From: Hormiphora californensis
Taxonomy: Eukaryota > Animalia > Ctenophora
Assembly: GCA_020137815.1 (NCBI GenBank)
Contig: CM035350.1
Location: 3,348,001 to 3,412,000, forward strand
Length of the DNA stretch: 64,000 nt
Direction of reading: 5' to 3'
The notes under the pieces were generated by a model that was given only the letters and a program-made list of their open reading frames with translations, was not told where the DNA came from and did not search any database. The translations under genes and the position numbers were made by a program. This document shows positions 13,001 to 19,000 of this stretch, piece by piece (position 1 is the first letter of the stretch; every line of letters begins with the position of its first letter).

Positions 13001-16000
13001 ACAAACTTTCGGAACTTTGCTAAATAGGGCCTTTAAGAGGGAAAAAAGTAAATCAATCTCACGACCGAAAATCATCACCGATTTTAATAAAAAATTTTGT
13101 GTCGATAAACCTTCCTATCCCCTTCAAATCCCCATAATTTTAAGCTTCTAGCCCTGAAAATGTATTTTTAGGGTGTCAAAAACGTCTTTTCGGAAATTTT
13201 CAAGACGATTTTAAAACGGCTGTAGCAAAAATATGAATTCGACTTGAGGGCTAAAATTGCATATTTGAGGTCTCCTTGGCATGGCCTACAACCCTGCGGT
13301 GAGAGATTTCCCTGCACTCGAAAATTTTTGGTTAGCGTACCCTTAAAGGGGTTATTTCGTAACCCCCGTCTCCCCACCAGATGAACACCAAGGATGACCA
13401 TGTTCAGCTTGTCAAGTTGGAGAATGTCCTGGCCCTCGCTCTACATCTTCGGGAGGTTGCTGAAGAATTCCAGCGCAAGAAAGTCCGGGACACTCAGGAC
13501 TTTGAGTGGGTTCGGAACCCGAGGTACGCGTATATTTTAGAGAATCAGAAATCTTTTAAGATAATATCAGAAACAAACAAGATGTATATCTAGGTTTATT
13601 ACAGGTACTATGTAGACGAGCGAGAAATAAAGATGGTAGTGAGTGACTATAACATGGCGTACGGATGCGAATACGTGGGATGTGACCAGAACCAATCCCT
13701 CACCCCTGTCCGGGACAGGTTCACTCTTCTCCTAGTCCACACCATCCAACAGTACACGGGGGTGTCCCTGGTGGCTGATGCATCCGTGGGGAAACATGAG
13801 ATTGCCAAGTGTCTGAGCAGCATGTGTGCTCGCTTCCTCCTGACATTCCACTGTAGCAATGGGACCACTTATGATTGCATCAGCAAAGTTCTAACTGGAC
13901 TTGCCCAGGTTGGTGATCACAAAACAAATTCACACGTGGTTTTTTGTTGGCACTGGCAATGGCTTCGTTAAAAAGTTGTTTTGGCCGTTAACCACAACAC
14001 CCCCCACTAATACTCTCTCTATTTCAGGAAGGATCATGGGGGTGTTTCAGTCAGGTTCAGTGTCTGTCCCTGCCGACAATTCAGGTGTTGGCCCAATGCC
14101 TACACCTCATTTTGGGATCCCTACAACAAGAACGGGAAAGCTGTACACTTTTCTCAGGGCAAAAGGTAACTTGTATTTTCAAAGTTCAACCTTCTAATCA
14201 CTCCTATTCTTGTTTCGTACTGGCAACCATATTTTACGACCCACTATGTACTACTACATTAATCCTTTTTCAGATCCCACTTAACCCTGAGTTCGCAGTA
14301 TTTGTAACTCAAACAAATGATCGATATGAGGTTCCTGAATTGCCACCCACAATTAAGGGTTTGTTCCGGCTGGTTTCCATCCCCAAACCCAATTTGGGCG
14401 GATCCCTTAGGACATTATGTACAGTGCTCGGATTCAAGAGTGGCAAAATCCTGGCTGACCGGCTAGTTGTTATTCACAAGCTCGTCGCAATGCAAATGTA
14501 AATGCAGCATTTAAGAATTGATTGGAGAGATTCGTCTATCTCCCTATTGTAACATTCAAACCTCGATATAACGTACTTAGGCTTGTCTGGGAAGACCAGA
14601 AGTATTCTGTTTTATCTTGTTGTTAAAACTGTTGGGAATGTTACTACCCAAATCATGTTTTATCTAATGCCACACATATTCCTCCCTAAACCAGGAAACA
14701 GACTGGTATTGCCCATCTCTCGCTGGGAAACCTACACCAGTGTCTCATGATTGCCGCCACCAAGAGGAATGTCCTACTGTCCAATAAGAGCCACCACTTC
14801 GGCAGGGCATCCAGCAACACCACCGGGTCAACCGTCCCAACGCCAGGTTAAAAAACACACGGATAGTTAGCGAAGGAAAATTAAATAGTGAATTTATAGG
14901 TAGAAAGAAAAAGAATTTGATAATATACTTCAGAGTTCACGGGAGGTTTGAGTTTTAGTCAGCCCATCCATCTTACAAACCGTGGTTTGGTTTGTAATGG
15001 CTCTCTGCAGTCTCTTAGGCCTATAATTCTTCCTCCTTAACACCCTCACGTAGAGGAGATGGCGAGCGTATTCCTGTAGTGTACTGCCCCTTACAATCAG
15101 GATTATGGGGTTGAGGGCTGATGTTATCTGGGGCAGGAAGGCAACCACAAGAAACATTGGGATCTCATACACAGCCTTTCTGTTCATCATGACGTTCCCA
15201 CCATCAGCAACTTCCGTGTTGAACTGCTCAAATTCGCCCATGAGGAAGCCCACGAAGGGAGCGGGAACGTACATGAATCCTGCCGAGATGGATAGTAGGA
15301 CGATGGTAATGACGCTCTTCCGGCCGTGTACCTTGGCGTTCCTCTTCAGGAGTTTAGTGATGGTGATGGCACTGGTGATGATGTTGATGAAGGCAGGGGC
15401 GAGGAGGTTAATGATGAATGTGTTCACCACCTCGTCCCACCCCAGGGGGCAGGTCACCGTTTGGACCATGGGATCCCACACGCAGTAGCAGTCCCGGGTG
15501 GTTGTCAGGTTGTACTTCGGGGCATCCTTGATCGGTGGAAACGCTGCGAGAGGGAGGGTTTTTAGTGGGATTTTTAGAACACCAAATCAAAATGGGTGTG
15601 GGTTTCAAGATTTAAATATATGCAATTGCTCCCAGTCATTCTCTATCAAGGTTAAATGAATTCAGTCGTCTACCAATGCAGCTCGATAAGAATTTGACAC
15701 ACGTGCGACCTAATTACTTGATGATGCAGACAGACACCTTTTGACAGATGAAACTGAGACAGTGAGACACATATGACACCTACCATTTTAGAACTCAGAC
15801 GACAATAGTTATAGCTTGAATTATTCAAGCTATCTCTCTCACACAGACATACAAATCGTACCTTTAATTTTGAGCATGTACATGAAGAAACTGATGGCGA
15901 TGAGGATGAACCAGATGGAGAGGGTGATGTAGACCATCCTCGGTTTGATGACGTATCGAGGAATGGTGATGGCCACCAGCCTCTGCACACTCATCATCGT

Positions 16001-19000
16001 CGTGATGAAAAGAGACAACCGGAAAAAGAAAAGTTGGATAACGGTGAATGACATGTTGAACCAGTTGGCGGGCACTACCTCATCCCTATCCGCCTTGAAG
16101 AAGTGGTAGATGGAGGGGATGGCTGTGATAAGGGTGGTAAAATCAGAGACACTCAACAGAAACAGCAGGAGAGAGGTGGTCTTCTTCCTCTTTGTGAAGT
16201 GGTAGCTAAAGACAATGGGATTTAGGAAACAGGAGCAGAGGAAGATGAGGAACTGGGAAGTTCCGAAGAGGTAGTCCACATATACCGGAATGTACTCTGT
16301 TGTTGTGTTCTTGGCGAATACTGTCATAGCGCTATATCATGGGTGAAATGGGTGGGTTAGAGAGTCAAGGTAAACATAAACTGAAGATAATTCACGCATA
16401 TATTTTACCTAGCTAGTTTACAATACAAGAAAAGATGTAATAATAGCGGCGACAAGACGGAAGTAATTATAATTATAATTCTCAGGTCTATTTTGTAATG
16501 AGTTTTATCTAGGTAAAGTTTCAGTGAGTGACAGAAAGAACGCACGGGCACCAACACCAGTCAATCTGACCCCACAAATCAGACTCGAGCACGCCCTCGT
16601 TAAACAGACCTTGATGGAAACCTTCGGAATGCGATTCGTAAAAGAGGTAAACGTGTCAGCTGTCAGCAGTGGTATATTTTATATTTTGCTGCATCAGTTT
16701 TCATAACTAGTATCCCTCCCATCTCAGGACCTACAGATGTTCGAGACTATTCTCAAGGATACCTTCTCGGGGACTTGTGATAATCTAGCGATCCCTAAAT
16801 CTGACGCGTCGCCCCTGCCAGACGTAAGTGCAGCGAGCCCCAGAACTATTCTGGGAGGAAGAGATAAGAGAGAGAGAGAGAGAGAGAGAGAGAGAGAGAG
16901 AGAGAGATATGTTGTTAATATCGCGGGGTATATTTTATTATATTAGTATAATAAGTTTCAGTAAAACATATTCCCCCTCTTCTAGTAGCTACCCCCCACC
17001 TTTCTAACCTCTTCAATTTCAATAACTATGAGTATTATGGAACAATCCCTATACCTTGGTTACGAAATAACCCCTTCACGCGCTGGCAAGGGAGGGGTAA
17101 CTCCGTATAACCAACACTATACCCCAGGTAAGAGCGCATTTCATCCAACAAGCAGAGGTAGCAGGACTGGAATGTCACGCATCATGGGTTTCAAAGGCCA
17201 TGCAACTATACAACTTGAGCCAAACATACTCTACTCTCATTGTGGCGGGTATGTTTTAACACCATCAAAGCTGTGATATATTAGGATTAAAACTAAAATA
17301 TAATCTATGAACTGATATGTTAACACACATGCAGCCTGTTCATCCTGACAAACTATGAATTTAACACTAGCTCCCTGTTATAGGTCCCCCAGCGGTTGGT
17401 AAATCCAGACTTCTCTCCACCCTGATCAGCACCCTGAGTGCCCACTCCCCAGCGGGACATATCCACAAAATGGTCCGTGTTAACCCCCTCTCCGTGGGCT
17501 CCCTAGACAAGATATTTGGGCACATTAACGTGAACGGAGAGTGGGTGGATGGCATCCTGACAGCAGCTTGGAAGAAAGCCAACAACTTCCGTAACACATC
17601 CACCTGGCTCGTAATGGACTCTCCCCTCCACTCCTCATGGGCAGACATGTTACACAGTGTAATGCAACAAGACAGACAGCTCACCCTACCTAATGGAGAT
17701 AGAATGTTCATGGAGGGTAATCTACAGTTGGTATTTGAGACAGATAGTTTGGCGGGGGTTAGTCCCGCTATAATACTGCCCTCAGGGATGCTCTACATGG
17801 AGGCGGAGGTGCTCGGTTGGGAGCCTCTCAGTAACACTTGGCTTGCCACCAGGACACCAACAGATGCACATGTAAGTGGAGAGAGAAATCAATTTTAATC
17901 AACCCGGTCTAAATACAGAATTACCAACACCACAGTTTACACCACTCCTGATCCCGTCCTCTAACTCGCCTACCCATTGCATCTCTATAATCACATCTTT
18001 AACCCAAGCAACTACTTCAGATCCTGCGTCTCCTGTTTAGTAAGTTGGCTGGACCACTCCTGTCCTATATGGCAGAGGAGGCTACACCAACAGTAAAAGT
18101 GTGCAACACCGGTCTATTCAACACCTTCATCAACCTTCTCACGGCCATGTTGGACAACTTTGCAGAGGTAGGCGGTGACTATTATCATGGATGATCTTCT
18201 TATGATACTGCAGATCATTGCAGGAAATTAATCACATCAATTTTATTATAACTAAGCTGTTTTACACAGGTCAAAGCGGAGTCTAATGCTGAAATTCTGA
18301 TGGAGAAGATCTTTGTTTTCTGCATTGTGTGGTCTCTAGGCGGGCTTCTACCTGGCAACCAACAAGCAGCTTTCTCCGACCTTGTCAAGTCACTAACCAA
18401 CTGGTAAAAACACAAAATATAATTGTAGGACTAAACCTTTAGAGTTTCGTTCTACATAAACCACTATATTTCTAGTTTACCGGAGTACTCGGATAGCACT
18501 GTATACGATTACTACGTAGATGAGGGAGGAGAATGGGATAGCTGGTATAACTTGTAAGTACATTGAGTAAATGCAGTTACGATTCCTCGATGCCCCCTTT
18601 GATGACCAGTAACCAATACAAATATAAGAAGCCTTCTTTCCAGTACCAACTATTCAATCATTCAAACAAAGAGAACACATGCCCCCCCCCCCCGAACATG
18701 TGCTCGATATAAATGGTAAACATGGTGCCTATCTGGGCAAAAGTAACAAGGAGTCCTTGTTACTTCTGCCCAGATAGGCACCATGTTTACCATTTATATC
18801 GAGCACATGTTCCATTGTTCCGGTACTTAGATAAAGGGGAGGTAAATATAGCAGCACAAATGAGCTCTTTGTCATGGGGCAATTGAAGCGTACTGAAGGG
18901 GTGCAGTTCAACATGGCGCTATGTCATAATTGTCGCTCCCTCTTTTACTATCCTCGCCCCCTCTTGTCCCTCTCCATCTGTTTTAGGGACATGACCGTAT

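What the first reader, a model, noticed from the sequence alone, without database searches (positions are those of the whole stretch)
13604..17790. Apparently intact dynein heavy chain whose AAA1 ATPase site is completely dismantled: candidate motor-dead pseudo-dynein
Seen: at the AAA1 positions, Walker A GPAGTGKT reads ADASVGKH (13774-13797), Walker B CFDEFNR reads CFSQVQC (14043-14063), sensor I TMNPGY reads TQTNDRY, sensor II FGLRN reads LSLGN (Gly at 14726), and the arginine finger supplied by AAA2, SPATVSR, reads SPAIILP (Pro at 17779). Established: these motifs are near-invariant in motile dyneins, and AAA1 hydrolysis drives the powerstroke and microtubule release. Also seen: the flanking structural residues, all later domains, splice phases and the C-terminus are retained, with no stop or frameshift in the exons I translated. 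Inference: five concordant losses across five exons in an otherwise maintained gene point to a non-catalytic DNAH5/8-derived protein acting as an axonemal tether, brake or scaffold. This would be especially interesting if the animal is a comb-plate-bearing ctenophore. Degenerate chains such as DNHD1 are known, so novelty needs a phylogeny.
Basis: partly seen in the sequence, partly recalled or inferred. Interest (0 to 1): 0.88.

Follow-up and report, generated by a model that had tools for sequence, protein, structure and literature searches.

The report
Probable comb-jelly DNAHX, motor-dead dynein
This is an intact, selectively maintained copy of DNAHX, a dynein family already described as non-motile in sea-urchin sperm, likely from a comb jelly; its main ATP site has decayed further than in almost all relatives, so it likely acts as a passive partner of other ciliary motors, not as an engine.

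Summary
The motif changes are real and at the stated coordinates, but the Walker A lysine is kept and the AAA4 P-loop is lost too. The gene has 64 exons (6199-51042, all GT..AG, no stop or frameshift; 5' part outside the window). Alleles show 0 amino-acid-changing against 22 silent differences, so it is not a pseudogene. It is not a new pseudo-dynein: it is the orthologue of DNAHX (Chai et al. 2025, PMC11785096; probably Kollmar's class 12). It groups with DNAHX in motor and tail trees, a grouping with DNAH5/8 is rejected, and it shares DNAHX's AAA4, stalk and microtubule-binding-domain insertions. AAA1 erosion is family-wide: sensor-II Arg survives in 1 of 66 genera. This copy keeps 1 of 7 catalytic residues, matched only by two acoels and Clytia among 63 complete orthologues. 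It likely cannot bind Mg-ATP there, unlike urchin DNAHX. The host is likely a ctenophore, a group not named in the DNAHX text. Expression was not shown. This scan found DNAHX before on other DNA (octopus).

The parts
6199..51042 (+). DNAHX-type dynein heavy chain gene, 64 exons, 3,842 aa within the window; the 5' exons (DHC_N1 tail) lie upstream of the window or were not detected
   Evidence: own spliced alignment to dynein profiles; Pfam on 22 of the exons
7906..8915 (+). two DHC_N2 (tail/linker) exons, closest to outer-arm class-3 (DNAH5/8) tails
   Evidence: Pfam PF08393, E 1e-25 and 9e-55; tail tree
13774..13797 (+). AAA1 Walker A, ADASVGKH: Lys kept (13792), Thr to His (13795), first Gly to Ala, Val at position 5 as in urchin DNAHX V2221
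14043..14063 (+). AAA1 Walker B, CFSQVQC: Asp to Ser (14049), Glu to Gln (14052)
   Evidence: same motif in a related species' fragment P0004
14307..14327 (+). AAA1 sensor I, TQTNDRY: Asn to Thr (14313)
14717..14731 (+). AAA1 sensor II, LSLGN: Arg to Gly (14726)
17384..17406 (+). AAA2 P-loop, intact (Gly-Lys-Ser)
17761..17781 (+). arginine-finger motif of AAA2 serving AAA1, SPAIILP: Arg to Pro (17779)
19290..19442 (+). exon with the intact AAA3 P-loop; its Walker B (Asp-Asp) lies in exon 21145-21276
27160..27346 (+). exon with the lost AAA4 P-loop (no Lys), as in all DNAHX examined
29799..29970 (+). exon with the AAA4-small-domain insertion (PS2i): helix part aligned, beta-hairpin part short or absent
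33325..33489 (+). exon with the acidic insertion in stalk helix CC1
33623..34126 (+). two exons with microtubule-binding-domain helices H1-H2 and the pre-H3 insertion (about 40 aa over DNAH5)
35105..35197 (+). 93-nt symmetric exon encoding the H5 insertion of the microtubule-binding domain; added by hand, missed by the aligner
50975..51042 (+). last exon, DNAHX-like C-terminal motif, two residues shorter than the orthologues

Best explanation
This is an intact DNAHX dynein heavy chain gene, likely of a ctenophore, whose product is predicted to be unable to hydrolyse ATP at AAA1 and would serve as a conformationally locked, non-motile partner that pairs with another axonemal heavy chain during cilium or sperm-tail assembly. 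Shown here: intact frame, purifying selection, orthology to DNAHX, loss of six of seven AAA1 catalytic residues, loss of the AAA4 P-loop, intact AAA2 and AAA3 P-loops, and the family's insertions in AAA4S, stalk and microtubule-binding domain. Inferred from AAA+ chemistry: without the Walker A Thr and Walker B Asp there is no Mg2+ site, and without Glu, sensor I, sensor II and the arginine finger there is no hydrolysis, hence no powerstroke cycle. Taken from the urchin cryo-EM study and not tested here: the ring is held pre-powerstroke by the AAA4S insertion gripping the C-terminal cap, the stalk folds back, and the chain forms open and autoinhibited (phi) heterodimers with another heavy chain. 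The retained class-3-like tail would supply the dimerisation and accessory-chain sites; nucleotide at AAA2 and AAA3 would stabilise the ring. Membership in DNAHX about 0.95; no AAA1-driven motility about 0.9; the locked-partner role about 0.55.
For: Orthology: the best full-length hit among the proteins then held was the S. purpuratus protein P0161 (2,129 bits against 1,562 for the next). Searching with it returned some 70 relatives from sponge to frog. One, P0277 (Lytechinus variegatus, 5,272 aa), has V2221, S2322, T2324 and K2393 exactly as given for XP_041462850 in PMC11785096. Against 289 long proteins the first non-DNAHX hit ranks 81st (1,564 bits against 2,258 for P0277). FastTree support is 1.0 for window plus DNAHX in both the motor tree (55 sequences, 2,600 columns) and the tail tree. 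Constraint trees joining it to DNAH5/8 or to class 3 are 571 and 448 log-likelihood units worse (AU p 6e-45 and 8e-4; 16 taxa). Shared insertions over DNAH5 occur at the same places. Selection: 0 non-synonymous and 22 synonymous allelic differences over 1,994 coding nt (binomial p 1e-14); 24 of 24 listed indels fall in introns. Exon fragments from related species are 53-87% identical and P0004 has the same Lys-His-Glu and Walker B string. Family pattern over 67 genera: AAA1 Lys 66/67, Thr or Ser 65/67, Asp 58/65, Glu 39/65, Asn 30/65, sensor-II Arg 1/66, arginine finger 44/65; AAA2 Lys 66/66, AAA3 Lys 65/65, AAA4 Lys 0/65.
Against: No transcript or protein evidence was obtained for this gene, and the 5' third is outside the window, so the tail's dimerisation region was not examined. 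The phi-particle role rests on one preprint, on urchin sperm, with 13% of particles in that form and the partner unidentified. The PS2i beta-hairpin is short or missing here, although the paper says only the helix is conserved. The stalk still aligns end to end with canonical stalks (HHalign probability 100%, E 1.6e-39), so microtubule binding is not excluded. Urchin DNAHX holds ATP at AAA1; if that ATP helps the lock, this copy must be locked some other way. The allele tables were truncated (40 of 179 rows, 40 of 59), and run X1 may be the source sample. The AU test used 2,000 replicates and the program warned that this is too few. No DNHD1 sequence was in the trees.
Confidence: 0.7

Rival explanations
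1. It is a passive structural subunit of the mature axoneme: the class-3-like tail docks it at outer-arm positions, perhaps paired with a class-13 chain, where it works as a spacer, tether or brake in particular cilia.
For: The tail groups with class 3; Kollmar proposes class-12/class-13 heterodimers at outer-arm sites; urchin DNAHX was salt-extracted from mature demembranated axonemes; helices H1-H6 of the microtubule-binding domain are recognisable.
Against: Stalk and binding-domain insertions vary in length across the family and are predicted to fold the stalk back. No localisation data exist for this gene.
Confidence: 0.2
2. It is a nucleotide-regulated switch in which AAA2 or AAA3, not AAA1, binds or turns over ATP and changes the ring's shape, so it regulates partner dyneins without being a motor.
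For: AAA2 and AAA3 P-loop Lys are kept in 66/66 and 65/65 genera, the AAA3 Walker B acidic pair in 64/66 and 66/66, while AAA1 and AAA4 decay.
Against: In canonical dyneins these sites are largely structural or modulatory (established knowledge; PMC8754002 passage), so their conservation is expected for a static ring too. Only a pre-powerstroke class was seen for urchin DNAHX.
Confidence: 0.08
3. It is a decaying pseudogene or 'ghost' dynein whose catalytic site has eroded neutrally.
For: Long terminal branch (about 1.0 substitutions per site) and near-total loss of AAA1 catalytic residues.
Against: 63 of 63 canonical introns, no stop or frameshift in 3,842 codons; 0 of 22 coding allelic differences change an amino acid; orthologous fragments in other species.
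Confidence: 0.02

Closest known systems
DNAHX / dynein-X (Chai, Loustaunau, Zheng, Yang, Zhang 2025, bioRxiv preprint, PMC11785096; reference XP_041462850, Lytechinus variegatus)
   Same: Orthologous: same clade in motor and tail trees, 33.6% identity over about 4,030 columns, Val at Walker A position 5, no sensor-II Arg, AAA4S insertion, CC1 and CC2 insertions, pre-H3 and H5 insertions, same C-terminal motif.
   Different: Urchin DNAHX keeps Lys-Thr, Asp-Glu, sensor-I Asn and the arginine finger (6 of 7 sites) and traps ATP; this copy keeps only the Lys (1 of 7). Its PS2i hairpin is short or absent. Ctenophores are not mentioned in the paper's text; its species tree (Fig. 2c) could not be seen.
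Class-12 dynein heavy chain (DHC12), Kollmar 2016, PMC5100056
   Same: Class-3-like tail, atypical stalk, 4,800-6,000 aa range given for classes 11-13, present in Lottia and Strongylocentrotus; my orthologue set includes both genera and its rows lack the Pfam stalk family PF12777. DNAHX = class 12 is my inference.
   Different: Kollmar reports class 12 in choanoflagellates too, did not analyse ATP sites, and describes the stalk as lacking a typical binding domain and coiled coil, whereas a profile alignment still finds both, interrupted by insertions. His accessions were not visible, so identity was not checked sequence by sequence.
DNHD1 (class 11), the degenerate mammalian orphan dynein
   Same: Non-catalytic AAA1 lacking Walker B residues, insertions through the motor domain, ciliary or sperm role (as summarised in PMC11785096).
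   Different: Separate lineage according to that paper and Kollmar; no DNHD1 sequence was obtained, so this was not tested here.
DNAH5/DNAH8 (class 3, outer-arm heavy chains)
   Same: Closest canonical relatives; homologous tail, ring, stalk and C-terminal domain.
   Different: They keep all seven AAA1 catalytic residues and the AAA4 P-loop and lack the insertions; grouping the window protein with them is rejected.

Membership tests
DNAHX | Forms one clade with XP_041462850, apart from DNAH5/8 | tested here: met
   support 1.0 in motor and tail trees; alternatives rejected; P0277 identified as XP_041462850 by species, name, length and four numbered residues, the accession itself not shown by the tool
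DNAHX | Reciprocal best hit against the Lytechinus proteome (the paper's own test) | tested here: inconclusive
   P0277 scores 2,258 bits against 1,564 for the best non-DNAHX protein of 289, but no other Lytechinus dynein was in my set
DNAHX | Unusually long chain (about 5,200 aa) | tested here: inconclusive
   3,842 aa in the window cover profile positions 1,281-5,243 of 5,245; the N-terminus is outside the window
DNAHX | AAA4 small-domain insertion (PS2i) with conserved helix | tested here: met
   about 30 extra residues over DNAH5 at the same place, helix segment aligned, hairpin short as in Trichoplax and Nematostella
DNAHX | Insertions in stalk CC1 and CC2 | tested here: met
DNAHX | Pre-H3 and H5 insertions in the microtubule-binding domain | tested here: met
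   about 40 and 33 extra residues over DNAH5; the H5 insertion is exon 35105-35197
DNAHX | [quoted passage not shown] | tested here: met
   more extreme than the urchin protein
DNAHX | ATP trapped at AAA1, locked pre-powerstroke state, phi heterodimer | not testable with these tools
   needs cryo-EM or biochemistry; loss of Thr and Asp suggests the trapped Mg-ATP state may not apply
Kollmar class 12 | N-terminal tail similar to class 3 | tested here: met
   tail/linker tree places the clade with class 3 (support 0.93), apart from class 4; only the part of the tail inside the window was used
Kollmar class 12 | Stalk without a typical microtubule-binding site or coiled coil | tested here: inconclusive
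   atypical (insertions; no PF12777 on orthologue rows) yet homologous end to end by HHalign
Kollmar class 12 | Groups with Kollmar's named DHC12 sequences | not testable with these tools
   his tree files are cut in the held supplement
Kollmar class 13 | Class-4-like tail and low-complexity C-terminal extension | tested here: not met
   tail groups with class 3; the protein ends at the usual C-terminal motif
DNHD1 / class 11 | Clade with DNHD1 | not tested
DNAH5/8 (class 3) | Intact AAA1 catalytic set and clade with DNAH5/8 | tested here: not met
   1 of 7 residues; topology rejected

The most novel reading that the evidence does not exclude
Ctenophore DNAHX is a nucleotide-free pseudo-ATPase at AAA1, one of at least three independent near-total losses in the family (ctenophores, acoels, Clytia; pulmonate snails close behind). 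The pre-powerstroke lock would then need no ATP at AAA1, DNAHX would date to the last common ancestor of all animals, and in comb jellies it would work in somatic compound cilia (comb plates or aboral organ), not only in sperm.
Probability: 0.3. Interest if true: 0.55.

Novelty: new member of a known kind. Interest (0 to 1): 0.3.

Why it matters
The concept of a conserved motor-dead dynein related to DNAH5/8 is already published, so the headline is not new. What this copy adds is modest. It probably extends DNAHX to ctenophores, the deepest-branching position in my tail tree. It is also a natural extreme variant that separates two explanations of the urchin structure, a lock by trapped ATP or a lock by the AAA4 insertion. 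The family survey adds that AAA1 and AAA4 decay repeatedly while the AAA2 and AAA3 P-loops are nearly invariant, and that DNAHX is probably Kollmar's class 12, a link not made in the preprint's text. Comb plates give abundant ciliary material in which the untested cellular role could be examined.

Tried and rejected
No whole genome is held for this window, so paralogues and the upstream exons could not be checked. No RNA holder was listed; the one possible RNA run laid only three short, diverged pieces, all on the nested antisense gene; this says nothing on expression. A homologue search with the AAA2 exon among proteins of 292-2,000 aa found nothing. The ESM Atlas gave no answer. The metagenome scan gave one weak locus, 37% over 41 residues (L001), useless for dN/dS; between-species dN/dS was therefore not computed. 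P0130, P0158, P0159 and P0222, unnamed degenerate class-3-like dyneins, first looked like relatives but form a separate clade. The aligner's first exons at 3173-4198 belong to a glutamate receptor gene; exons placed at 15208-15452 and 10337-10357 were rejected as spurious (antisense gene; 21-nt exon with a GC donor). The sensor-II column was out of register for some echinoderms; it was redone (Arg still 1 of 66). No structure was predicted: AAA1 is spread over four exons, no whole ctenophore protein record was found, and the preprint already models the stalk. A six-frame motif scan for canonical alternative exons was not completed; the profile scan stands in for it. No ctenophore DNAHX or later DNAHX paper was found in searches; most subscription journals are not in that library.
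Full report
Observation. At the seven AAA1 catalytic positions (Walker A Lys and Thr, Walker B Asp and Glu, sensor-I Asn, sensor-II Arg, arginine finger from AAA2) the window reads K, H, S, Q, T, G, P; 26 of 31 non-DNAHX dyneins in my set keep all seven. 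The Walker A Lys is kept, so 'completely' is slightly too strong. The AAA2 and AAA3 P-loops are intact and the AAA4 P-loop is lost.

Gene model. No genome is held. I wrote a spliced profile aligner and ran it with three profiles. The final model has 64 exons from 6199 to 51042, 63 of 63 introns GT..AG, 3,842 codons and no internal stop or frameshift. Hand edits: two spurious exons removed, one 93-nt exon (35105-35197) added because it has canonical sites, keeps phase and fills a profile gap. The first exon has no start codon and about 1,280 profile positions are missing, so the 5' part lies upstream of the window or was not detected. A profile scan of all + strand segments gave a single set of AAA1 segments.

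Selection. Contigs of two DNA runs from two studies were laid on two stretches. The tables list 40 of 179 and 40 of 59 difference rows. I dropped four rows that came from the possible RNA run and six more outside the dynein exon stretch counted. Of the remaining rows, 22 fall in exons and all 22 are synonymous (0 non-synonymous; 1,532 non-synonymous and 462 synonymous sites; p 1e-14), and 44 fall in introns. All 24 listed indels are intronic. One of the runs may be the source sample. Short exon products from related, unnamed species are 53-87% identical, and P0004 shows the same Lys-His-Glu and the same Walker B string. The gene is therefore maintained and the degenerate site is shared beyond this species.

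Identity. A search with an alignment of P0130 and four window exons returned P0161, S. purpuratus 'dynein heavy chain 8 isoform X3', which beat all others against the model (2,129 against 1,562 bits). Searching with P0161 gave some 70 relatives of about 5,200 aa from a sponge, Trichoplax, cnidarians, acoels, lophotrochozoans, deuterostomes, fishes and amphibians. I read parts 1-5 and 7 of its 7 parts; figures and its supplement were not seen. P0277 (Lytechinus variegatus, 5,272 aa) has V2221, S2322, T2324 and K2393 as stated for XP_041462850. The window protein joins the DNAHX clade with support 1.0 in the motor tree (55 sequences, 24 of them DNAHX) and in the tail tree, in the latter as sister to all other members, in the former unresolved beside the sponge. 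Trees forcing it with DNAH5/8 or with class 3 are rejected (16 taxa, 2,000 replicates, flagged as too few). It carries the family's insertions in AAA4S, CC1, CC2, before H3 and at H5. Kollmar's class 12 (PMC5100056; abstract, searched passages, one of nine parts of the main text, one of five parts of the supplement) has a class-3-like tail and an atypical stalk and occurs in Lottia and the urchin, so DNAHX is probably class 12; the preprint's text does not say so and I could not match accessions.

How unusual is this copy within the family? One sequence per genus, 67 genera: AAA1 Lys 66/67, Thr or Ser 65/67, Asp 58/65, Glu 39/65, Asn 30/65, sensor-II Arg 1/66, arginine finger 44/65; AAA2 Lys 66/66, AAA3 Lys 65/65, AAA4 Lys 0/65. 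Among 63 orthologues complete at all seven sites (four incomplete ones left out), none keeps seven; 23 keep six, 18 five, 8 four, 8 three, 3 two (pulmonate snails) and 3 one (two acoels and Clytia). The window keeps one. So erosion of AAA1 is ancestral and continuing, and near-total loss has happened in several lineages that are apart in the tree. The preprint already says that AAA1 motifs vary substantially across the family.

Host. The intronless glutamate receptor at 3062-5653 matches only ctenophore ligand-binding domains at E below 1e-12 in the PDB when its S2 segment is the query (ML032222a, 115 bits, and 4zdm, 109 bits; that these entries are Mnemiopsis and Pleurobrachia proteins is recalled). 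With the deep position in the DNAHX tree this makes a ctenophore likely; it is an inference. The preprint's text never mentions ctenophores, but its species tree was not visible.

Mechanism. From established AAA+ chemistry, loss of the Thr and Asp removes the Mg2+ site and loss of Glu, Asn and both Arg removes hydrolysis, so no powerstroke cycle is expected. In urchin DNAHX, cryo-EM shows only a pre-powerstroke state with ATP in AAA1, an AAA4S insertion gripping the C-terminal cap, a predicted folded-back stalk, and 60% monomers, 27% open dimers and 13% phi heterodimers with an unidentified heavy chain; the authors propose that it inhibits and escorts other dyneins during flagellar growth. I adopt this as the most likely role (about 0.55), with a passive axonemal subunit (0.2) and an AAA2/AAA3 switch (0.08) as rivals. 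Against it: no expression or localisation evidence for this gene, a short PS2i hairpin, and a stalk that still aligns end to end with canonical stalks.

Other papers seen: PMC8754002, searched passages on DNHD1 and AAA1; 10.1101/2025.03.10.642390, searched passages showing that Mnemiopsis comb-plate heavy chains were analysed by mass spectrometry, its supplementary table not seen; PMC11184263, two passages, one reporting a DNAH5-like gene enriched in the Beroe aboral organ, identity untested. Searches for DNAHX found only the preprint.

Verdict. Real, intact and motor-dead by sequence, but a new member of a known kind: a probable ctenophore DNAHX at the extreme end of the family's AAA1 decay. 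Interest 0.3.

Noticed in passing
window 3062-5653 (+): Intronless 863-aa ionotropic glutamate receptor gene on the same strand, just upstream of the first detected dynein exon; probably nested in a dynein intron, since that exon has no start codon. Its ligand-binding S2 segment matches ctenophore iGluR structures best.
   Followed up: partly
window 14930-16336 (-): Two-exon gene for a seven-transmembrane, GPCR-like protein nested antisense in the dynein intron between the sensor-II exon and the next; no Pfam family at E 0.1 for either exon; diverged paralogue pieces appear in the possible RNA run.
   Followed up: partly
proteins P0130, P0158, P0159, P0222: A separate, well-supported clade of unnamed class-3-like dyneins with partly degenerate AAA1 (3 to 6 of 7 sites), outside DNAHX; a second independent erosion from the outer-arm lineage, hosts unknown.
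   Followed up: partly
DNAHX orthologues P0308, P0309, P0311 (pulmonate snails), P0344, P0345 (acoels): The Walker B Asp is replaced by Lys or Arg, which could stand in for the Mg2+ charge; an untested idea.
   Followed up: no
window 12400-12870 and similar stretches near 11100, 24970-25400, 57440-58030: A dispersed repeat with an internal inverted arrangement around poly-G/poly-C runs sits in several introns; likely a miniature inverted-repeat element.
   Followed up: no
fragments P0002, P0003, P0005, P0008 against window 13605-13908: Related species seem to have an intron just before Walker A that this species lacks, and P0004 lacks the intron at 13909-14027; intron positions have shifted while the protein stayed 53-87% identical.
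   Followed up: no
proteins P0012, P0024, P0036, P0051, P0071, P0103: Further unnamed dynein sequences with degenerate AAA1 Walker B, not assigned to a class; P0103 is a long branch near class 3.
   Followed up: no
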